A DNA stretch of 36,773 nt from Chloroflexota bacterium (GCA_030691665.1 JAUYDU010000370.1:1-36773); one strand, 5' to 3'. Counted from the stretch's first letter, positions 21,231 to 36,773 are shown. The notes: generated from the letters alone by a model not told the origin. Made by a program: numbers and translations.

Positions 21231-21530
21231 GACCTCCACACCGTACAGCGCATGCTCGGCCACCACAACGTCGCCACGACCACCCGGTACCTCCACCTCC
21301 TCCTCAGCGACATGCAGGAGAAGATGCGGACCTTCAGCCCGATGGACAACATGACCCTAAGAAGCGAGAGGGAAGGGAAGAAGCCGGGGGGAACCTGGGA
21401 CCAGGCCGATGGCGGTCAGGTGAACAGTCGACTCATTGACACGCCCTGGACACCCGCAACATCGCCAAGTATGCCCACTGCCGCTCTTCGCAGTATAATT
21501 CCTCGCAGAGGCATATCACATGGTGCGTGA
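21213..21530 (+). pseudogene. 3'-terminal stub of a tyrosine recombinase/integrase
   Basis: The frame reads ..CDLHTVQRMLGHHNVATTTRYLHLLLSDMQEKM.. (about 21228-21350). This is the LGH...TT..Y.H box carrying the catalytic Tyr. Everything N-terminal to it (Arg-His-Arg catalytic residues, core-binding domain) is absent, with an in-frame stop at 21210. Confidence 0.7.
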
Positions 21531-22407
21531 AAGGCTCCTCTTCAAGACGTTCAAGGATCTTCGGCTGCGAGCTTCGAACGCACAATCGCATGTCGATCTC
21601 ATTCTGAACCTTGAGTCACTAGATCGCCACAAAGATCTCTTGGGGGCCCCGTCAACCGGCGTCGAGAGACGGCTTCTACTGACGGGCCTAGCCAATGTCT
21701 ACGGGATGGCGACGCACCTGAGGAAAGCCCTTCGGATTGGTTGGAAAGCCGGCATTGGTGCGATCCACTTTAACTCGACTGAAACGCTAATCATCGACCG
21801 TCAAGATGTTTGGCAGTGGGGGACAGGAGAGAGCCGAGCTCTTCCTGTTACAGGGAATCCGCATTCCGCCGTGCGTTCCTTTGACGCCATGTGGAACTAC
21901 TGGCGCTCCGTGAAGAGAATCGAGCCGGTGACCCAGGAACTGAAGCCATCCGCGCAGCTCCTCAAGGTGTCCTCGCATCAGTGGGATCAAATCGTTGCGA
22001 GTCTCAGTAAGAACCCTGGACTGCTTCATGTCATGTCGCCGAGAAGGTTTGAGGAATTGGTTGCAGAGCTACTTGAGCGAGAAGGCCTGCGGGTCAAGCT
22101 CACGCCGCCGCAGCGCGACGGTGGATTCGATATTTTGGCCTTTCTCAATACACCTTTAGGCGAGCATCTCTACTTGGTTGAGTGTAAACGTTGGGCGCCT
22201 CACCGAAGAGTTGATGTGACGATAGTACGTCAACTTCTCGGGGTGCTTCACCGCGATGAGGCTACGGCGGCCATGCTCGTTACTACATCGTCCTTCACCG
22301 TCGACGCTCGAAGGGAGGCGGATATCTTCCGGTATCGGCTATCCCTGAAGGGCTATGACGATCTGGTCAGGTGGCTCAGACTGCAACCGACTGGGCACAC
22401 CAAGTGA
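21520..22407 (+). CDS. Mrr-type (PD-(D/E)xK) restriction endonuclease domain protein with uncharacterised ~170-aa N-terminal domain
   Basis: C-terminus MSPRRFEELVAELLEREGLRVKLTPPQRDGGFDILAF...LYLVECKRW...VRQLLGV...AMLVTTSSFT is the Mrr_cat pattern (D...ECK). GC content is visibly lower than the flanks. Confidence 0.75.
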   Translation: MVRERLLFKTFKDLRLRASNAQSHVDLILNLESLDRHKDLLGAPSTGVERRLLLTGLANVYGMATHLRKALRIGWKAGIGAIHFNSTETLIIDRQDVWQWGTGESRALPVTGNPHSAVRSFDAMWNYWRSVKRIEPVTQELKPSAQLLKVSSHQWDQIVASLSKNPGLLHVMSPRRFEELVAELLEREGLRVKLTPPQRDGGFDILAFLNTPLGEHLYLVECKRWAPHRRVDVTIVRQLLGVLHRDEATAAMLVTTSSFTVDARREADIFRYRLSLKGYDDLVRWLRLQPTGHTK

Positions 22408-25951: not shown

Positions 25952-26974
25952 ATGACACAACGCATAGTGCTCAAGAGTCTAGGGGAACTCGGTCGCTTCG
26001 CGGACTTGCTTGCCCCGAGTGACCGGCCCAGCAACGAACGGGCGCTCGTGCCAGTCGTGGTCGAGCCGATGATGGCGCCGGACCTCGAAGCGCTGGCCGA
26101 CGCCGCGAGCCGGGCGGCCGAGGAGCTACGCCACCTCGCCGAAGCCGACAGCCGGGCGAGGCGCGAGGCGGAGGCGGCGCTGACCCGCTACCGGCGGCTC
26201 CAGGGCGACAGAGCCCGCCTTCAGCGCATCGCCGGCGAGGCGCAGACGGTCGCCGACCGTGCGGCGGCACTAGCCCAGGAAGCCTTCGAGCCCGCGTGCC
26301 GTGAGCGGGCGGGGGCCGTCGCGATAGCCGCGGCGTTCGTCGCAGCAACGGCCAGGAACCGGCTGCAGGCTGTCGAGGCGGACGTGGAAACGCTCGGTGC
26401 CCGCGAGGACCTGGCACGGCTGCTGGAGGAGGAGCGCGAGAGGGAGGAAGCCGCTCGCCGCCAGGCCGAGGAACGCCAGCGGGAGGCTCGGCTGAGAGAC
26501 GGTATCGCCCGTGCAGAGGCGCTGGCGAAGGAGCGAAAATTCAACGAGGCCCGGAGGCTGTTGGGTCGTCTCGCTCAAGAGTGCCCCAACAGTCCCGCCC
26601 TGGCCTCGTACATCGACAGGATACGGCGGCAGGAGTGGGCCGTCAAGACGCAGCGCCTCGAAGAGGCATTGCGTCAGGCCCGCCGTCTAATCCGCCGAGA
26701 ACCCCGTGAGGCCATCGCTCTCCTGGAGCCGCTCGACCTGAGCGGGATGCCGGACACCCTCGTGCGACAGGTCTACGGGTGCTGGTTGACCGGCTGCCGT
26801 GGCCTCGGGCTCGAATCGGCTATCCACTACCCGGCGGCCTTCGGCAGGGGAGCCGTCTTGATCCCCACGCGAGACAATGGCCTCGAAGTCGTCTCCGCCA
26901 TCGGCCTTCCCCACTGGCAGCCAGGCCGCCGTTTGTCTCGCGCTGCGCTCAAGGGCGCACACCCTCTCCGCTGA
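25952..26974 (+). CDS. hypothetical coiled-coil protein (340 aa)
   Basis: ATG with AAGGAGGTG upstream. A long Ala/Glu/Arg-rich heptad-like middle (EEEREREEAARRQAEERQREARLRD...) and a distinct C-terminal domain. Confidence 0.65.
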   Translation: MTQRIVLKSLGELGRFADLLAPSDRPSNERALVPVVVEPMMAPDLEALADAASRAAEELRHLAEADSRARREAEAALTRYRRLQGDRARLQRIAGEAQTVADRAAALAQEAFEPACRERAGAVAIAAAFVAATARNRLQAVEADVETLGAREDLARLLEEEREREEAARRQAEERQREARLRDGIARAEALAKERKFNEARRLLGRLAQECPNSPALASYIDRIRRQEWAVKTQRLEEALRQARRLIRREPREAIALLEPLDLSGMPDTLVRQVYGCWLTGCRGLGLESAIHYPAAFGRGAVLIPTRDNGLEVVSAIGLPHWQPGRRLSRAALKGAHPLR

Positions 26975-26999
26975 CTTTCCGGCCTCTAGAACGCCTTTC

Positions 27000-27030
27000 C
27001 CCTGGGGGCCGCTACAAGCGGCCCCCAGGG
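27000..27030 (+). terminator. 13-bp perfect GC-rich hairpin after the coiled-coil gene
   Basis: ccctgggggccgc-tacaa-gcggcccccaggg. No U-tract, so it is a terminator or other structured element. Confidence 0.45.
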
Positions 27031-27188
27031 TGCACATGCGTCCGCCCGGGGAGATCTGTGCCTGGCTCCCTGGCAAGCAGCAGGTCGACTCACAGCCCTT
27101 CGAGAAATGGAGAACCCAACATGTCCAAAGAAGACCGGTTCAGCGAATACAGCCGCCACAGGTGCCGACAACCGGCGGAGCTCTGGCA

Positions 27189-29081
27189 GTGCTAGACCTG
27201 TCGAAACTCAACCCGGAGCAGAGGGAGGCGGTCACCGCCACGGAGGGGCCTTTGCTCGTCGTGGCCGGCCCCGGCTCCGGCAAGACGGCCGTCATCGCCG
27301 CCCGCGCCGCCTACATCATCGACCAGGGGCTGGCGGAGCCGTCGGCGGTTCTGGCCGTCACCTTCACCAACAAGGCCGGCCGCGAGCTCAAGCGTCGCCT
27401 GGCTTCGGTGCTGGGGGAGTCGGCGCGCCAGGTGTGGGCGGGGACTTTCCACGCCTTCGCCCTGCGCATGCTCCGCCAGTGGGGCGGCCACTTCGGCTTC
27501 GATCCCGATCACCTCTCGGTTTACGCCGACCAGGGGGACCGAAGGACGGCGCTGACGCAGGCCCTGAAGGAGCTGGGCCTCGACCCCAAAGGTCAGCCCA
27601 GAGAGGCGCTCCTCCAGATGATCAGCCGGGCCAAGGACCGATTGCTCTGGCCGAAGGACGTGGCGGGGCGTGACCCGGAGCTCAGCGCCGTGTACGAGGC
27701 TTACCAGGGAGTGCTGCGGCGCCGCAACGCCCTGGACTTCGACGACTTCCTCCTGTTCGCCGTGCGGCTTCTGGAGGAGCGAGCCGACGTAGCCCGTTCG
27801 CTGCGCTGCACCCACCGGTACATCCTGGTGGACGAGTTCCAGGACGTGAATCACGCCCAGCACCGGCTTCTCACCCTTCTGGCCGCCGAGCACGGCAACC
27901 TCTGCGTCGTCGGCGACCCCGTGCAGAATTTGTTCTCCTGGCGGGGGAGCGACATCCGCTACCTGCTGGAGTTCCAGCGGGATTACCCGAACGCGCGAGT
28001 TATCTCCCTGGAACAGAATTACCGCAGCACGCAGGTGATCCTGGCCGTGGCCAACGCTCTCAGCGCCGCCCTGCGCTACGGGCGGCGGAACCTCTGGACG
28101 GCCAACCCACCCGGCCTGCCGGTAGTGCTGCGGGCCACCGACGACCCTCAGGCCGAGGCGGCCTTCGTCGTCGCCGAAGTGCAACGGCTCATCGCTGAGG
28201 GCGCTGTCGGGTCGCCAGGTGACTGCGCCGTCCTCTATCGAACCAACGCTCAGGCGCGGGAGCTGGAGCTGGCCTGCCTGGAGGCGGGCCTGCCCTACAG
28301 CGTGCGCGGCAACAACGACTTCCTGGCGCGCAAGGAGATCCGCGACCTCCTGGCCTACCTTAGGCTGGTGCACAACCCGCAGGACGTAGTGGCTCTGGGA
28401 CGGGTGGTGAACACGCCGCCCCGACGGCTGGCCACCCTGGAACGGCGCATCCGCGCCGGTGAGGAGCTAACCCTGGGCAGACTGGAGGCGGAGTTCCCCT
28501 GCGGCCTCAAGGGCGACCGCAGCCGCAAGGCGCTGCGCGATTTCCTAGAGGTCGTGGCTGTGCTCCGCTCCATGGCGGACGCCCCGCCTGGACCGCTCAT
28601 CGAGGCGGTTCTGGAACTCACTGGATACCGGACATGGCTGCGGGGCCAGGAGGACGGCGAAGCGCGCCTGGCGAACCTGGAGTCCTTTCGCGGATTCGCC
28701 GAGCGGTCGGAGGCTCAGGACCTGGCCGAGTTCCTGGACGAGGTCAGCCTCGCAAGCGACCTGGAGACGGGCTCCGACCCCGAGGGCCTTGCCCTCTCCA
28801 CCATTCACGCCGTCAAGGGGCTGGAGTGGCCGGTGGTGTTCGTCGCTGGACTGGAGGACGGACTGCTCCCCCACGCCCGCGCCCTGGACGGGCTGGAGGG
28901 CGAGGGCAGTGCCCTGGAGGAGGAGCTGCGGCTGTGCTATGTGGCGGTCACCCGCGCCGTCGACCGAGTCTACCTCACCTATGCGCGGCGGCGGCCAGGC
29001 AACGGCCGGTCACTAGCCGCCATGCCCTCGCGTTTCCTGCGACGGATGCCCATCGACCTGTTGGAGCGTCGCGCCGCGTAG
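27189..29081 (+). CDS. UvrD/PcrA/Rep-family SF1 DNA helicase
   Basis: Motifs: LNPEQREAV, GPGSGKT (I), AVTFTNKAGRELKRRL (Ia), ILVDEFQDVN (II), VVGDPVQNLFSWRGSD (III), LEQNYRSTQVIL (IV), STIHAVKGLEWPVVFV (V), LCYVAVTRAVDRVYL (VI). The GTG at 27189 was chosen because it lies 7 codons before LNPEQ. The listed ATG at 26877 overlaps the previous gene and the hairpin. Confidence 0.85.
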   Translation: MLDLSKLNPEQREAVTATEGPLLVVAGPGSGKTAVIAARAAYIIDQGLAEPSAVLAVTFTNKAGRELKRRLASVLGESARQVWAGTFHAFALRMLRQWGGHFGFDPDHLSVYADQGDRRTALTQALKELGLDPKGQPREALLQMISRAKDRLLWPKDVAGRDPELSAVYEAYQGVLRRRNALDFDDFLLFAVRLLEERADVARSLRCTHRYILVDEFQDVNHAQHRLLTLLAAEHGNLCVVGDPVQNLFSWRGSDIRYLLEFQRDYPNARVISLEQNYRSTQVILAVANALSAALRYGRRNLWTANPPGLPVVLRATDDPQAEAAFVVAEVQRLIAEGAVGSPGDCAVLYRTNAQARELELACLEAGLPYSVRGNNDFLARKEIRDLLAYLRLVHNPQDVVALGRVVNTPPRRLATLERRIRAGEELTLGRLEAEFPCGLKGDRSRKALRDFLEVVAVLRSMADAPPGPLIEAVLELTGYRTWLRGQEDGEARLANLESFRGFAERSEAQDLAEFLDEVSLASDLETGSDPEGLALSTIHAVKGLEWPVVFVAGLEDGLLPHARALDGLEGEGSALEEELRLCYVAVTRAVDRVYLTYARRRPGNGRSLAAMPSRFLRRMPIDLLERRAA

Positions 29082-32851: not shown

Positions 32852-32885
32852 AAGAGCCCCGGAGGTTCGAGCCTTTGGGGCTCTT
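32852..32885 (+). terminator. hairpin after the RHH gene
   Basis: aagagcccc ... ggggctctt 9-bp stem, extended by inner G-U/A-U/G-C pairs. Weak T-tract. Confidence 0.4.
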
Positions 32886-32909
32886 GCTATTCCCGACACG
32901 GAGGTGATG

Positions 32910-34586
32910 ATGACCCAACTGACTGACACACCTGTCGCCCTGTTGGTCTGCGAGCGCTGCGGGCAGGCGGCGATGGGGCTGTGGGCCCACGGCGACCCCT
33001 GCCCGAACCGGCGCTGCGGCGGCCTGCTCACCACGCAAATCCAACCGGAGGTCACACGCGGAGCGGCAGCGCGCCCTGACGGGGACGGCCACGACGGCCC
33101 TGGCGATGTGCTGGAGTCGACCGTTCCTTTGTTAGCGCCGCTACCGCCCTCGCGCGATGGCGAAGGCGAGACGCTGGACGCGGGTCCTGAGCCAGAGGTT
33201 GAGGAGCTGGTCCTGCCACCGCCAGACCATCACTTCTTGGCCGGACGAGCCTACGCCGTCCGCCTGGCCCGACGGGTCGTCGAGCGACGGCGGCGGGGCG
33301 AGACGAATGAGCCCGATGTCCTCGCCGAGATACGCCGCCGCTTCGTGGACCTGGGGGCCATCTACCGGCCGCCCTCGGGCGTCTTCAACATCCAGCGCGC
33401 CCGCGAGCAGCACCGGGGGCAGTTCTTCAGCAACCCGGCCATCGGCCGCTTGCTCTTCCGGCTGCTCCAGCCGCCACAGGGTACCCGCGCCCTGGAGTCC
33501 TGCGTCGGAATCGGCAACCTCATCGCCGAGCCGGGCCGCGTCTGCGTCACCGGCATCGACGTAGACCGCGACGCCGTCACGGTGGCCCGAGCGCTGCTGG
33601 GCGACGGCCACTGCCTCGTGCTGGACGAGTTCCAGCACCATCGCTTCGACGGCAAGTTCGAACTGGTGCTGGGCAACCCGCCCTACAGCCTCCACCTCCG
33701 CGACCGCCGCCGGCTCTGGCAGCATGTGGGCTGGGACGGCTGGGGCCGCGCCGAGGCCCTGTGGCTGGAGCAGGCCTTCCTGGCTGTGGCCCGGCCCGGC
33801 GTGGTGGCCGCAGTCCTGCCCGCCAACGCCCTCGAGGCCCTGGAGCCCACGGTCGTGCGCTGGGTCGAGGGCAAGGGGCGGCTCCTGGTCTGCATTGATC
33901 TGCCGCCGGAGGCCCACGCCTCCAGCGATTGGCCGACCGCTCTCTTCATCTGGGTTGTGGGTGCGGAGTTCAGCGGGCCAGCCTACCGCGACCGTATGCC
34001 TTCCCTGGACGACGGCGCCATCGCCGACCTGCTGGCCCGCTGGCCCTCCAGTCAACTCGACCTGCTGGCGGCCTGCCGATCGGCCTGGCAGGAGACGGTC
34101 GAGCAGCGTCGGCTGACCGGAGACGACGGCCCGGTAGTGGTTCGCCCCTGGACGCAGCCGGCACGTCAGGAGCGCCGACAGCAGGCCGATGGCCTGCCGC
34201 TCGTGGACCAGGACGTCGTGCTGGCCCGCATAGTCGACGGCCGGCTGCGGCTCGTCCCCAACGGCTGGGCCGCCCAGGCCAAGCTTGCCCTCCTCGACGA
34301 AGAGATGGGCACCCGCTACGACCGGAAGCGGGAAGTGTACATCAAGCTCTGGCAGGAGCTCCTGGAGCGGCCACCGTTGCTCGGGCTCGAGGATGTAGCC
34401 GAGCGGCTCCGCTGCTACGGCACGGAGGTTGCCATCGACGGCCAGAGCGAACGCTGGCTAACGCGCCAACGCCGCTGGTACGAGCGCCAGATGGCGCCGC
34501 TCAGTCGGTGGGTGGCTGGACAGCCACAGGCGAAAGGCGGAAAGCAGAGGAGCACCGATGACGTTGAGCTGGACAAAGCTGCATGA
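32910..34586 (+). CDS. N6-adenine DNA methyltransferase (gamma-type order) with N-terminal zinc ribbon and ~230-aa uncharacterised C-terminal extension
   Basis: CERCGQ...CPNRRCGG (Zn ribbon), ALESCVGIGNLIAE (SAM motif I), VLGNPPYSL (motif IV NPPY). In-frame starts at 32904/32907/32910 follow GGAGG. 32910 has the best spacing. Confidence 0.8.
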   Translation: MTQLTDTPVALLVCERCGQAAMGLWAHGDPCPNRRCGGLLTTQIQPEVTRGAAARPDGDGHDGPGDVLESTVPLLAPLPPSRDGEGETLDAGPEPEVEELVLPPPDHHFLAGRAYAVRLARRVVERRRRGETNEPDVLAEIRRRFVDLGAIYRPPSGVFNIQRAREQHRGQFFSNPAIGRLLFRLLQPPQGTRALESCVGIGNLIAEPGRVCVTGIDVDRDAVTVARALLGDGHCLVLDEFQHHRFDGKFELVLGNPPYSLHLRDRRRLWQHVGWDGWGRAEALWLEQAFLAVARPGVVAAVLPANALEALEPTVVRWVEGKGRLLVCIDLPPEAHASSDWPTALFIWVVGAEFSGPAYRDRMPSLDDGAIADLLARWPSSQLDLLAACRSAWQETVEQRRLTGDDGPVVVRPWTQPARQERRQQADGLPLVDQDVVLARIVDGRLRLVPNGWAAQAKLALLDEEMGTRYDRKREVYIKLWQELLERPPLLGLEDVAERLRCYGTEVAIDGQSERWLTRQRRWYERQMAPLSRWVAGQPQAKGGKQRSTDDVELDKAA

Positions 34587-36339
34587 AGACGACGGGTTGG
34601 AGGCCCGCCACCAGCGAGATCTAGCGTCCGCCCGCAAGAAGGCTCTGGCCCTGGGCCTCGACCGCTGGCTCTACCCCTTCCAGTTCGAGGACGTGGTGCG
34701 GGCCAGCCTGAAGCAGAGCCTGCTCCTCACCTACCAGATGGGCCTGGGCAAGACGCGCGTCACCATCGCCCTGGCCCTGCTGTACGGCTGCCAGCGCAAC
34801 CTCCTCGTCGTCCCCAAGCGGCTCATGGGCGAGTGGGTGACCGAGTTCCGCGCCGTCGGCCTGGCCGACGACCTCCATGTCGTCGAGACGCTGGAGGATT
34901 CCCGGAACCTCCGGAGGTTCAATCTCGTGGCCATCACCGACCTCTGGCGGCTGCCGGACGATAGCCCCCTTCGACACGCCGGCGACGACCGCTACCGTCG
35001 GGGAGCCAACTATCGCTCGCACCTGCGGGGCGACCGCGTCGTCGAGGACATGGGCCTGCGCCACAGCCTGGCCTCGGTCCTGCGCAAGCGGTTCGGGTTC
35101 ATCGCCGTCGACGAGGCCTACTCCCTGAAGGATATGGAGGCGAACCAGACCAAGGCGGTGACCCATCTGCGGGCCAAGCACAAGGTCCTCCTCACCGGAA
35201 CGCCGGTGCGCGGCTACCCCAACAACATCCTGTCGCTGCTCAACTGGGCCTTCGGCAACGGCTCGGCCGTCTGGCCGGAGTACAGCTTCTTCGTCGAAGG
35301 GGCAGTGGAGAAGTTCCTGCGGCGCTTCGGCACCTACGTCTACTACGACGAGCAGCACCGGCGCACAGGGGACCGGGGGAAGAAGAAGCTGCTGCCCAAG
35401 ATCCGTGACCCCCAGGGCTTCCAGGAGATGCTGGCCCCCAAGATGATCCGCCGCCTGAACACGGAGCCTGAGGTGACGGCGGCGGTGCGCATCCCGGAGC
35501 CGCAGCTCCACTACGAGGCCATCGAGATGGACGACCGCCACCGCCGCGCCTACCAAGCGGTGCTGGCCGACTTCCGCGCCTGGTACGAGGCGGCGTCGGC
35601 GGAGGCCGGGGCCGAGGGGCGCACCCTCGGCCGTCAGCAGATCCTGCCCAAGCTCACCGCCCTCATCGGCTGCGCCTCCTTCCCCCAGCTTCTCGACCCT
35701 GACTGGAAGGAGCCCACGGCTAAACAGCGGCGGGCGCTCCAGATCGTCCAGGACGCCATCGGCGAGGGCCGCAAGGTCATCCTCCTCTCCCGCAACAAGG
35801 AGGGGGCGAAGTGGATGCACAGGCGCATCGAGCGGCTGGGCTGCGACCCCCTGTACGTGGACGGCGGCGTCAGCCTGGAGCTGAACCGCCGCACGTGGAC
35901 CTCGCCCCGCATCGAGCGCATCGACGCCTTTCGCCGCAGCCCCTTCCATCGGGTGCTGGTGGCCACGACGCCCTGCCTGGCCGAGGGGCTGAACCTCCCC
36001 GAGGCCAGCGTCGTCGTCTTCCTCGACTACGACTGGGTGCCCTCGGTGATGGCCCAGGCCTTCTCGCGGGTGCTGCGGCCCCAGCAGGAGCGAGACGTGC
36101 AGGTCTACTTCCTGACCTGCCGGGGGACCATCGAGGAGTACATGGAGCTGCTGTGCGACTGCAAGCGGAAGGCCATCGCCGAGGGGCTGGACTACGAGGA
36201 GTACGACTTCCGGCTGGAGGATCTGCCCGACATCAAGGCCTACGCCGAGGCCCTGGTCACCAGCTCGGAGGTGCTGGAGAGGTTCACCCGCCGCCGCTTC
36301 GTCGCCGGCTACGAACGGGAAGAGGGCCAGGGGAGTTAG
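34558..36339 (+). CDS. SNF2-family helicase/translocase
   Basis: YPFQFEDV, MGLGKT (I), LLVVPKRLMGEW (Ia), IAVDEAYSLK (II), LLTGTPVRGYPNN (III), VLVATTPCLAEGLNLPEASVVVFLDYDW (V), QAFSRVLRPQQ (VI variant). ATG with GAGGAG upstream lies 29 nt inside the methyltransferase gene. Confidence 0.85.
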   Translation: MTLSWTKLHEDDGLEARHQRDLASARKKALALGLDRWLYPFQFEDVVRASLKQSLLLTYQMGLGKTRVTIALALLYGCQRNLLVVPKRLMGEWVTEFRAVGLADDLHVVETLEDSRNLRRFNLVAITDLWRLPDDSPLRHAGDDRYRRGANYRSHLRGDRVVEDMGLRHSLASVLRKRFGFIAVDEAYSLKDMEANQTKAVTHLRAKHKVLLTGTPVRGYPNNILSLLNWAFGNGSAVWPEYSFFVEGAVEKFLRRFGTYVYYDEQHRRTGDRGKKKLLPKIRDPQGFQEMLAPKMIRRLNTEPEVTAAVRIPEPQLHYEAIEMDDRHRRAYQAVLADFRAWYEAASAEAGAEGRTLGRQQILPKLTALIGCASFPQLLDPDWKEPTAKQRRALQIVQDAIGEGRKVILLSRNKEGAKWMHRRIERLGCDPLYVDGGVSLELNRRTWTSPRIERIDAFRRSPFHRVLVATTPCLAEGLNLPEASVVVFLDYDWVPSVMAQAFSRVLRPQQERDVQVYFLTCRGTIEEYMELLCDCKRKAIAEGLDYEEYDFRLEDLPDIKAYAEALVTSSEVLERFTRRRFVAGYEREEGQGS

Positions 36340-36669
36340 CCCTGGCCCTCCTGGCCTCGGGTTGGACGGGTGGGAACGGCCTTGGGGCGGAGCGACAATT
36401 CGCCGGTCGCCACCCTTTGGACACGGCGCATGGCTCTTGACGCCTTCGGGACGTCATGCCATGATGCGGGCGCTGGCCTGGCAGACGACGAGGTACCATG
36501 AGGCGACTTGCCGGCCTGTTGCTTTTGACGCCCACTCTGGCCACTTCCGCGGATCTCACAGCCACAGCCGATACGCGCCCGAACTCTGGTCCTTTCTTCG
36601 CGCCGGCACTCTCTATTCTCTCGCTGTGAGTACATTGGATCCGGTCTGGTTTTCGGAGCCAAGCCACAT

Positions 36670-36773
36670 ATGTTTGAGAGACTGAGCCAGGATGATATTT
36701 CCGCTGCTCTCGCCGAACTGATCGCCCTTTTGGGGGTGAAGGAAGACATGCCCGTCGACGACCTCGTCGCCCT
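36670..36773 (+). CDS. 5' end of an unidentified ORF running off the window
   Basis: ATG at 36670 opens MFERLSQDDISAALAELIALLGVKEDMPVDDLVA with no stop before the window end. No motif, and only 34 codons are visible. Confidence 0.3.
   Translation, partial: MFERLSQDDISAALAELIALLGVKEDMPVDDLVA

What the first reader, a model, noticed from the sequence alone, without database searches (positions are those of the whole stretch)
32904..36339. Translationally coupled N6-adenine methyltransferase (zinc ribbon + long unknown tail) and SNF2 helicase
**Observed**
- The SNF2 ATG lies 29 nt inside the methyltransferase ORF behind its own GAGGAG, so the two are made together.
- The methyltransferase has a Cys4 ribbon at the N-terminus and ~230 aa after the catalytic domain that I cannot assign.
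- The SNF2 protein has DEAY in motif II and a divergent motif VI.

**Interpretation**
- MTase plus SNF2 is the core of DISARM class 1 (DrmMI + DrmD). Separately, it is a common anti-restriction cargo of conjugative elements and phages.
- No DrmA/DrmB/DrmC-like genes (DUF1998, PLD) are in the window.
- This is therefore a reduced or new methylation-plus-translocase pair, an orphan protective methylase with a partner, or a system continuing past 36.7 kb.
Basis: partly seen in the sequence, partly recalled or inferred. Interest (0 to 1): 0.6.

Follow-up and report, generated by a model that had tools for sequence, protein, structure and literature searches.

The report
Split methylase–SNF2 motor of mobile element
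These two overlapping genes are a two-piece version of a roughly 1,000-residue DNA-methylase-plus-motor protein that plasmids, conjugative elements and phages often carry, probably to mark their own DNA against restriction; it is not a DISARM defence system.

Summary
A 560-aa gamma-class N6-adenine methyltransferase (32904-34586) overlaps a 593-aa SNF2 ATPase (34558-36339) by 29 nt, and GAGGAG lies 5 nt before the SNF2 ATG. The Cys4 ribbon, the ~210-aa tail, DEAY and the divergent motif VI are all present.

The pair is collinear with single ~1,000-aa MTase-tail-SNF2 proteins of conjugative megaplasmids such as pHG1, an archaeal plasmid and many metagenomic elements. Beyond its own clade, 20 of the next 28 profile hits of the methylase (E < 1e-14) are such fusions. 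An SNF2 tree nests the split clade inside fused lineages, which points to a gene fission.

The "unknown tail" is the conserved segment that precedes the SNF2 module in the fusions. It has no Pfam family and no fold match.

The DISARM reading fails. DUF1998 is absent from the genome, the DrmD model scores 28.7 bits against a cut-off of 610, and relatives with longer contigs show no conserved third gene. Relatives sit in replication/recombination modules of integrated elements, plasmids and one tailed phage.

The most likely function, inferred and not shown, is motor-coupled protective methylation of the element's DNA. This is the known "methylase-helicase dyad" in split form, so interest is modest.

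The parts
32852..32885 (+). 15-bp-stem hairpin between the preceding 148-aa gene and the methylase. It could be a weak terminator or a stabiliser. It is followed by the GGAGG Shine-Dalgarno at 32900-32904.
   Evidence: minimum free energy -34.1 kcal/mol for 91 nt, z -2.2
32904..34586 (+). Methyltransferase gene: 560 aa from GTG 32904. The start is more likely ATG 32907 or 32910.
32949..33017 (+). N-terminal Cys4 zinc ribbon (C16, C19, C33, C38), followed by a low-confidence linker to about residue 105. It is present in the split clade. The three fused relatives whose sequences I read lack it.
33219..33953 (+). N-terminal helices plus the gamma-class N6-adenine methyltransferase core (residues ~106-350). 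Motifs: GQFFSNP, ESCVGIGN, NPPY.
   Evidence: dN/dS 0.09
33954..34583 (+). C-terminal tail (residues ~351-560). Its conserved core, residues ~407-539 (34122-34520), is the unassigned domain that lies directly before the SNF2 module in fused relatives.
34547..34552 (+). GAGGAG Shine-Dalgarno for the SNF2 gene, inside the methylase ORF.
34558..34586 (+). 29-nt overlap of the two ORFs. The SNF2 gene is in the +1 frame relative to the methylase.
34558..36339 (+). SNF2-family ATPase gene, 593 aa. Walker A GLGKT, DEAY, TGTP, and motif VI QAFSRVLRPQQ with both arginines. No nuclease or other accessory domain.

Best explanation
The two genes encode the two halves of a methylase-helicase dyad, a nuclease-free DNA N6-adenine methyltransferase that works with an SNF2 double-strand-DNA translocase.

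In most relatives the same parts form one ~1,000-residue chain: methylase core, conserved ~130-residue linker domain, SNF2. In a Dehalococcoidia lineage the gene was split at the boundary before the SNF2 module, and the methylase half gained an N-terminal zinc ribbon.

The pair belongs to the replication/recombination module of an integrated mobile element, in the order UvrD, DnaG-type primase, Rad52-like, RadC, Phd/VapC.

Proposed mechanism:
- The SNF2 half moves along the element's duplex DNA using ATP.
- The methylase half is held to it through the conserved tail, which is the covalent link in the fused forms.
- The methylase marks adenines quickly and widely on newly entered or newly replicated element DNA, so that the recipient's restriction systems do not cut it.

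Shown here: the anatomy, the homology to fused proteins, the fission, intact catalytic motifs, purifying selection, the mobile-element context, and the absence of DISARM parts.

Inferred: physical association of the two proteins, DNA as the substrate, motor-assisted methylation, and the anti-restriction role.
For: (1) Collinearity with a fused protein. Methylase residues 145-555 align to residues 17-424 of the 1,039-aa 'SNF2-related protein' of Paraburkholderia plasmid pPs24235_2 (E 1e-14). SNF2 residues 4-577 align to residues 477-1017 of the same protein (E 9e-61). The same holds for pHG1 and, for the methylase half, the 986-aa protein of Methanomethylovorans pMETHO01, the plasmid record with the best tblastn match to the SNF2 half.

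(2) Profile search of 1.84 billion representatives. Beyond the two hits of its own clade, 20 of the next 28 hits of the methylase profile (E below 1e-14) are longer proteins, mostly 950-1,100 aa, carrying this SNF2 module C-terminally. An example is P0141: methylase+tail 11-423, SNF2 427-990, E 6.9e-159.

(3) SNF2 tree. The split clade (100/100) and an SNF2-only sister clade nest inside paraphyletic fused lineages when rooted with outgroup SNF2s. The supporting nodes score 100/100, 98/87 and 96/90. One change of state accounts for the split clade.

(4) The pairing is kept in all seven homologous loci with enough flank, at methylase identities from 39% to 88%.

(5) Context.
- The fused relative L010 sits after ParB, Rad52, DUF932 and RadC. 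The window has the same Rad52 and RadC neighbours.
- The proteobacterial fusions lie beside Lar restriction-alleviation, DUF1173, an exonuclease and PRTRC genes on conjugative or mobilizable plasmids.
- L012 is a tailed-phage contig.

(6) Catalytic motifs are intact. The fold matches gamma-class DNA adenine methylases. dN/dS is 0.09 for the core, 0.31 for the tail and 0.13 for SNF2.

(7) Literature.
- Orphan methylases are enriched in plasmid leading regions and are thought to be protective (PMC11541004).
Against: - No experiment exists for this ~1,000-aa family that I could find. The functional claim is by analogy.
- P1 DarB, the only tested archetype, shows no detectable methylase similarity to this family (BLASTP E > 1, no profile hit) and only marginal helicase similarity (E 0.006).
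- The module sits among replication and recombination genes rather than in a mapped leading region, so a replication-linked role is equally compatible.
- The genes are separated by up to 1.9 kb in relatives, so tight co-translation is not essential.
- Complex formation was not tested; no multimer prediction was available.
- The tail has no fold match, so its role as a docking domain rather than a target-recognition domain is unproven.
Confidence: 0.6

Rival explanations
1. The pair serves the element's own replication or recombination rather than anti-restriction. The SNF2 protein would act as a fork-remodelling or strand-annealing motor, like ZRANB3 and SMARCAL1. The methylase would mark element DNA for replication timing, strand discrimination or gene regulation.
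For: - The pair lies inside a UvrD, primase, Rad52, RadC module here and next to ligase, UvrD and primase in L005 and L012.
- The named eukaryotic hits of the SNF2 protein are mostly ZRANB3 annealing helicases.
- The SNF2-only sister clade survives without an adjacent methylase in phage-like contigs.
- In L017 the tail domain persists as a separate 196-aa ORF on the same contig as the SNF2 gene.
- The SMARCAL1 HARP domain and a phage 'HepA-related protein' appear among the non-significant fold hits of the tail.
Against: - The HARP hits are not significant (E 1.5, prob 0.06; E 0.82).
- The ZRANB3 similarity is generic SNF2 similarity (22-26% identity).
- The ancestral and dominant form keeps methylase and motor in one chain, which argues that methylation is the point of the machine.
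- Plasmid relatives sit beside restriction-alleviation genes.
Confidence: 0.2
2. The pair is the core of a restriction-like defence system: reduced DISARM, a BREX-related system, MADS or a new kind. Its effector would lie off the contig or be supplied in trans.
For: - Methylase plus SNF2 is the DrmMI and DrmD combination.
- PADLOC gives weak hits to mad2 (8.1e-12) for the methylase and to DpdE, ZorD and DrmD models for the SNF2.
- An Mrr-type nuclease gene lies 10.5 kb upstream.
- The contig ends 434 bp after the SNF2 gene.
Against: - DUF1998 is absent from the genome.
- DrmD equivalog scores are far below their cut-offs.
- The PADLOC SNF2 hits cover only the generic ATPase core of much longer profiles.
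- Neither protein has a nuclease domain.
- No other defence-specific family is found in the module.
- Relatives with 7-8 kb of downstream sequence have different genes directly after the SNF2 gene and no nuclease partner.
- The family's contexts are plasmid, ICE and phage replication or establishment modules.
Confidence: 0.05
3. The two genes are merely neighbours that act independently: an orphan methylase and an unrelated helicase.
For: - Relatives tolerate inserts of 0.25-1.9 kb between the genes.
- An SNF2-only clade exists.
Against: - The two halves are covalently joined in most of the family, with exact collinearity.
- The two genes co-occur in every split-clade locus examined.
- The tail that is the linker in the fusions is kept under purifying selection.
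Confidence: 0.1

Closest known systems
Single-chain ~1,000-aa methylase-SNF2 proteins of plasmids and integrative elements. Examples: WP_011154226.1 'helicase-related protein' of Cupriavidus necator pHG1; WP_201657665.1 'SNF2-related protein' of Paraburkholderia sabiae pPs24235_2; WP_342664122.1 of Methanomethylovorans pMETHO01.
   Same: End-to-end collinear homology of methylase core, linker domain and SNF2 module. Mobile-element context with Rad52, RadC and ParB-type neighbours.
   Different: Here the protein is made from two genes split before the SNF2 module. The methylase half carries an extra ~145-residue N-terminus with a Cys4 ribbon. Identity is only 19-30%. I found no experimental study of the fused family.
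DNA methylase-helicase dyad of polyvalent proteins; archetype phage P1 DarB (Iyer et al. 2017, PMC5512222).
   Same: - A gamma-class (EcoKI/TaqI-like) adenine methylase with an N-terminal helix and an FF(T/S)xP motif plus NPPY.
- Partnered with an SNF2-clade ATPase.
- Carried by phages, plasmids and conjugative elements.
- The split 'conserved gene neighbourhood' form is explicitly mentioned in the paper.
   Different: - DarB is 2,255 aa and packaged in the virion.
- It shows no detectable methylase similarity to this protein and only E 0.006 in the helicase.
- The LPD36 domain is not demonstrable here.
- The pair is not part of a polyvalent protein.
DISARM class 1 (DrmMI + DrmD with DrmA, DrmB, DrmC).
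   Same: An N6-adenine methylase beside an SNF2 helicase.
   Different: No DrmA, DrmB or DrmC. The DrmD model score is 28.7 bits against 610. No DrmMI hit. The context is a mobile-element replication module.
Type III and type ISP restriction-modification enzymes, and BREX-related methylase + SNF2-nuclease pairs (PMC12839542).
   Same: A methylase functionally coupled to an SF2 translocase.
   Different: There is no nuclease domain, and none of the TUDOR, inactive-REase or HKD domains named for those SNF2 proteins was found by Pfam. The domain order is methylase then motor. The carrier is a mobile element rather than a host defence island.

Membership tests
DISARM class 1 | DrmA/DrmB: a DUF1998 (PF09369) protein in the locus | tested here: not met
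   PF09369 has no match in the whole 72%-complete assembly, while the control genomes respond. It is absent from the 7-8 kb downstream of the pair in relatives L003 and L013.
DISARM class 1 | DrmD-type SNF2 helicase | tested here: not met
   NCBIfam DISARM_DrmD scores 28.7 bits (cut-off 610). DrmD_b scores 16.8 bits (cut-off 950). The PADLOC DrmD hits are partial and weaker than the DpdE and ZorD hits.
DISARM class 1 | DrmMI methylase and DrmC PLD nuclease nearby | tested here: not met
   No DrmMI model was among the methylase's PADLOC matches at E <= 0.1. PLD domains occur only on other contigs, C481, C46 and C22.
Methylase-helicase dyad of mobile elements (Iyer et al. 2017) | EcoKI/TaqI-like gamma-class adenine methylase with an FFxP-type N-terminal motif and NPPY | tested here: met
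   GQFFSNP at 172-178 (GQFFTSP, QFFTP in relatives) and NPPY at 258-261. Top Foldseek hits are HsdM, PacII M, M.BseCI, CamA and M.TaqI.
Methylase-helicase dyad of mobile elements (Iyer et al. 2017) | SNF2-clade ATPase fused C-terminally or encoded next to the methylase | tested here: met
   Pfam SNF2-rel_dom and Helicase_C. The gene is adjacent and overlapping. The same module is fused in relatives.
Methylase-helicase dyad of mobile elements (Iyer et al. 2017) | N-terminal LPD36 domain (four helices, GxG[GAS] motif) | tested here: inconclusive
   Two helices (109-128, 135-144) and a conserved F-x-D-L-G motif precede the core. No Pfam family was detected there.
Methylase-helicase dyad of mobile elements (Iyer et al. 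2017) | Detectable homology to the archetype P1 DarB | tested here: not met
   BLASTP of the methylase against DarB gives E > 1, and the A1 profile gives no hit. The helicase gives E 0.006-0.012.
~1,000-aa plasmid/ICE methylase-SNF2 fusion family | Collinear homology across methylase core, linker domain and SNF2 | tested here: met
~1,000-aa plasmid/ICE methylase-SNF2 fusion family | Single polypeptide | tested here: not met
   There are two ORFs in different frames. The split is conserved in the window's clade and derived on the tree.
Type ISP / type III restriction-modification | Nuclease domain on the motor subunit | tested here: not met
   Only SNF2-rel_dom, Helicase_C and ResIII (ATPase core) were found in the 593-aa protein.
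MADS (methylation-associated defence system) | mad2 methylase together with the other mad genes | tested here: not met
   The mad2 hit is partial: 42.7 bits, covering only the core residues 168-345. None of the ten neighbouring proteins scanned hits a mad model.

The most novel reading that the evidence does not exclude
The conserved ~130-residue domain at the end of the methylase has no Pfam family and no significant fold match. It may be a new SNF2-partner domain that lets methylase and motor assemble in trans. The same domain also exists as stand-alone small proteins. In the sister clade it stays with the SNF2 gene after the methylase is lost. It could therefore be a general adaptor or DNA-structure reader, perhaps HARP-like, for a class of mobile-element SNF2 motors. 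Their primary job might then be replisome-coupled DNA remodelling, with methylation as an add-on.
Probability: 0.15. Interest if true: 0.5.

Novelty: new member of a known kind. Interest (0 to 1): 0.27.

Why it matters
The report takes a candidate 'reduced DISARM' off the list. It shows that the pair belongs to a widespread family of nuclease-free methylase-motor proteins of mobile elements for which I found no experimental test.

The natural split form is a practical handle on that family. The two halves can be expressed separately to ask three questions:
- Does the SNF2 motor make methylation faster or broader?
- Does the unassigned linker domain mediate the contact?
- Does the machine protect incoming DNA from restriction?

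The report also documents a clean case of gene fission at a domain boundary.

Tried and rejected
- **DISARM, MADS and BREX-related membership.** Rejected.
- **A third conserved gene downstream.** The window is the whole contig. Relatives L003, L004 and L013 show variable genes and then ImuB/DnaE2. The window's last 434 bp do not match L003 beyond the first 23 bp.
- **Circular contig or terminal repeat.** None found.
- **Split as an assembly or frameshift artefact.** Rejected. The overlapping split arrangement is kept in three further loci, L003, L004 and L014.
- **Programmed frameshift giving a fused product.** The SNF2 frame is +1 relative to the methylase. I saw no slippery motif in the 29-nt overlap, and the genes are separated by inserts in L013, L005 and L012.
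- **Identity of the tail.** No significant result from any of these:
  - Pfam at E <= 10 on nine diverse tails gave only a 13.7-bit wHTH hit in one.
  - PDB sequence search gave nothing.
  - Foldseek against PDB gave a best E of 0.76, with SMARCAL1 HARP at E 1.5.
  - Foldseek against BFVD gave a best E of 0.016.
- **Phage relatives.** Only distant, generic hits in 50,697 phage records.
- **DarB homology.** Not detectable for the methylase.
- **NCBIfam 'pilus expression-regulating Snf2 helicase'.** 67.5 bits against a cut-off of 1,100, so not a member. A literature search for it led nowhere.
- **Contexts of stand-alone tail proteins P0273 and P0285.** The contigs were too short to be informative.
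Full report
**What is there**

The window is the entire 36,773-bp contig C499 of a fragmented assembly: 2.76 Mb, 563 contigs, 65% G+C, 72% complete. Close homologues come from Dehalococcoidia MAGs.

Two plus-strand ORFs match the finding:
- 32904-34586, 560 aa from GTG;
- 34558-36339, 593 aa from ATG.

They overlap by 29 nt. GAGGAG lies at 34547-34552, 5 nt before the ATG. The methylase more likely starts at ATG 32907 or 32910, after GGAGG at 32900-32904. Third-position G+C is 0.85 and 0.94, typical of real genes in this DNA.

**The methylase**

Sequence libraries barely see it. Pfam N6_Mtase scores 19.3 bits, below its cut-off. The best PADLOC hit is mad2 at 8.1e-12, over the core only.

The motifs are intact: GQFFSNP, ESCVGIGN and NPPY.

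An AlphaFold model built on ten homologues has mean pLDDT 69, with the core and tail mostly at 75-94. It matches gamma-class DNA N6-adenine methylases: type I HsdM, PacII M, M.BseCI, CamA and M.TaqI, at Foldseek E 5e-12 to about 1e-7.

The N-terminus holds C16-x2-C19-x13-C33-x4-C38, modelled as short beta-strands (residues 10-14, 39-44) and conserved in the clade. A disordered linker follows, to about residue 105.

**The SNF2 protein**

Pfam finds SNF2-rel_dom (2.4e-18) and Helicase_C (3.6e-11) and nothing else. Walker A GLGKT, DEAY and TGTP are present. Motif VI, QAFSRVLRPQQ, keeps both arginines. The ATPase is therefore probably active, and there is no nuclease domain.

**The key result: a split form of a fused protein**

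tblastn of the methylase against 72,556 plasmids hit 16 records. In 15 the match lay inside a gene annotated as an SNF2-related, DEAD/DEAH or helicase-related protein; the sixteenth record carries no annotation. All were on conjugative or mobilizable megaplasmids of Cupriavidus, Paraburkholderia, Caballeronia and Burkholderia.

In pPs24235_2 and pHG1 that gene encodes a protein of about 1,040 aa. In pPs24235_2 it lies beside a Lar restriction-alleviation gene; in pHG1 beside a 3'-5' exonuclease. Both have DUF1173 and the PRTRC cassette nearby.

Against the pPs24235_2 protein:
- methylase residues 145-555 align to residues 17-424 (E 1e-14);
- SNF2 residues 4-577 align to residues 477-1017 (E 9e-61).

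The plasmid record with the best tblastn match to the SNF2 half is a 986-aa protein of the archaeal plasmid pMETHO01. Its N-terminal half aligns to methylase residues 159-560.

**How general the fusion is**

A profile of ten split-clade methylases was run against 1.84 billion cluster representatives and gave 429 hits at E <= 1e-3. Beyond the two representatives of the window's own clade, 20 of the next 28 hits (E below 1e-14) are longer proteins, mostly 950-1,100 aa. phmmer shows that these carry the window's SNF2 module directly after the methylase and tail. For example, in P0141 the methylase and tail span 11-423 and the SNF2 module spans 427-990 (E 6.9e-159).

The 'unknown tail' is thus the conserved segment joining methylase to motor in the fusions. 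Its core, methylase residues ~407-539, is found by plain phmmer in fused proteins just upstream of their SNF2 module, at E 1e-6 to 1e-18.

**Direction of change**

A maximum-likelihood tree of 49 SNF2 modules was rooted with five more distant SNF2 proteins.
- The split clade (7 sequences, support 100/100) is sister to an SNF2-only clade (9 sequences, 100/100); that pairing has support 96/90.
- This pair of clades lies inside successive fused lineages: P0141/P0027/P0028, then P0148/P0165, then 21 other fusions, then P0160/P0176.

Fusion is therefore ancestral and the window's arrangement is a fission.

The three fused relatives whose sequences I read lack the zinc ribbon. A scan of one genome per species found the split methylase only in three Dehalococcoidia MAGs.

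**Is the overlap essential?**

The overlap and a purine-rich Shine-Dalgarno are kept in L003, L004 and L014 (26 nt). They are not kept everywhere:
- L013 has a 1.25-kb insert carrying two opposite-strand ORFs, flanked by a duplicated 5' end of the SNF2 gene.
- L005 has a 68-aa ORF between the two genes.
- L012 has six small ORFs between them.

Co-transcription is likely here. Strict translational coupling is not a conserved requirement. I found no sign of a frameshift site that would rebuild a fusion.

**Context**

Upstream in the window, in order:
- three unknown genes;
- UvrD, true start probably 27189;
- a DnaG-type primase;
- a Rad52/22-like protein;
- a 71-aa ORF;
- RadC;
- Phd/VapC;
- a 148-aa unknown.

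Further left are an Mrr-type nuclease and a Tad pilus island next to a tRNA-Lys.

Relatives show the following:
- L003, L004, L013 and L014 share the replication/recombination module.
- The fused relative L010 has ParB, Rad52, DUF932 and RadC in front of the fusion.
- L005 and L012 place the pair among pol-beta-like, ligase, UvrD and primase genes. L012 also has a tape-measure gene, so it is a tailed phage.

The pair is therefore mobile-element cargo in replication or establishment modules, not part of a host defence island.

**DISARM and other defence systems**

- DUF1998 is absent from the assembly.
- PLD domains lie only on other contigs.
- DrmD equivalog scores are 28.7 and 16.8 bits against cut-offs of 610 and 950.
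- No DrmMI model was among the methylase's PADLOC matches at E <= 0.1.
- The other module proteins hit only generic helicase, primase, JAB and type IV nuclease models in PADLOC.
- Downstream of the SNF2 gene the relatives differ. L003 has an SNase-LTD gene on the other strand. L013 has two unknown minus-strand genes. Both then reach an ImuB-like/DnaE2 cassette.

There is no conserved third partner.

**The tail**

A tail-only model has pLDDT 89-95 over residues 91-180 of the 209-residue piece. The order of elements is beta-hairpin, helix, beta-hairpin, two helices, strand, helix.

It has no significant match in PDB (best E 0.76) or BFVD (best E 0.016). It has no PDB sequence match and no Pfam family in nine diverse members.

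The SMARCAL1 HARP domain (E 1.5) and a phage 'HepA-related protein' (E 0.82) appear in the lists. They are far from significant, so this is a lead only.

The domain also occurs as stand-alone proteins of 170-200 aa. One lies on the same contig as an SNF2-only gene, 6.4 kb upstream of it (L017). This hints that the domain goes with the motor rather than acting as the methylase's target-recognition domain, but it is a single case.

**Selection**

Against L003, dN/dS is as follows:

| Region | dN/dS |
|---|---|
| Methylase core | 0.09 |
| SNF2 | 0.13 |
| Linker | 0.25 |
| Zinc ribbon | 0.30 |
| Tail | 0.31 |

All parts are maintained.

**Mechanism and comparison with what is known**

Iyer et al. 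(PMC5512222) describe the 'DNA methylase-helicase dyad'. [quoted passage not shown] P1 DarB is the archetype that protects DNA against type I restriction. They propose motor-driven methylation of incoming DNA.

Samuel et al. (PMC11541004) find orphan methylases enriched in plasmid leading regions.

The window's pair fits this kind in anatomy and context. It is not close to DarB itself, and I found no experiment on the ~1,000-aa family. I therefore rate the structural and evolutionary statement as well supported, and the functional statement (motor-assisted protective methylation) as the most likely but untested reading.

The main rival is a replication-linked role for the motor.

**Verdict**

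The feature is real, and it is a new split member of a known kind. The DISARM reading is not supported. Interest is modest. The two useful points are the unassigned linker domain and the fact that the natural split offers a way to test the family experimentally.

Noticed in passing
L013:11616-13007: In a Dehalococcoidia relative a 1.25-kb insert separates the methylase and SNF2 genes. The first ~72 nt of the SNF2 ORF occur twice, once at the methylase end and once (diverged, GTG start) before the real gene. The insert carries two opposite-strand ORFs, 146 aa and a 151-aa zinc-ribbon protein.
   Followed up: partly
genome contig C471:4310-6668: Three frame-shifted pieces of a second SNF2 C-terminus (83-91% identical to the L003 protein), followed by a homologue of the L003 195-aa downstream gene. 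This is either a decayed second copy of the element or a strain variant in the bin.
   Followed up: no
window 32852-32885: A strong 15-bp-stem hairpin with a weak T tail lies between the 148-aa gene and the methylase. It may be an attenuator, a terminator or an RNA-stabilising element.
   Followed up: partly
window 26877-29081: The UvrD ORF as listed (734 aa) overlaps the preceding gene. The L003 homologue is 630 aa and aligns from 27189, so the true start is probably there.
   Followed up: partly
L017:974-1564, with L018 and L021: The SNF2-only sister clade (625-642 aa) lies in phage-like contigs carrying genes such as gyrase, SSB, RusA or T4-type RNA ligase, with no detectable methylase nearby. 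In L017 the tail domain is a separate 196-aa ORF (E 4e-10).
   Followed up: partly
L003:17796-21683 and L013:20710-21639: Relatives carry an ImuB-like Y-family polymerase gene, and in L003 also a DnaE2-like gene, a few kb downstream of the pair. This is a mutagenesis-type cassette on the same element.
   Followed up: no
L005:10763-13786: The UvrD-like helicase of this relative contains an intein.
   Followed up: no
window 36340-36773: After the SNF2 stop the sequence does not match L003. A sigma-70-like site lies at 36437-36465. An ORF starts near 36680 (MFERLSQDD...) and runs off the contig end.
   Followed up: partly
window 21520-22407: A stand-alone Mrr_cat (type IV, methyl-directed) nuclease gene lies 10.5 kb upstream of the methylase. 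Whether its specificity is compatible with the methylase's product is unknown.
   Followed up: no
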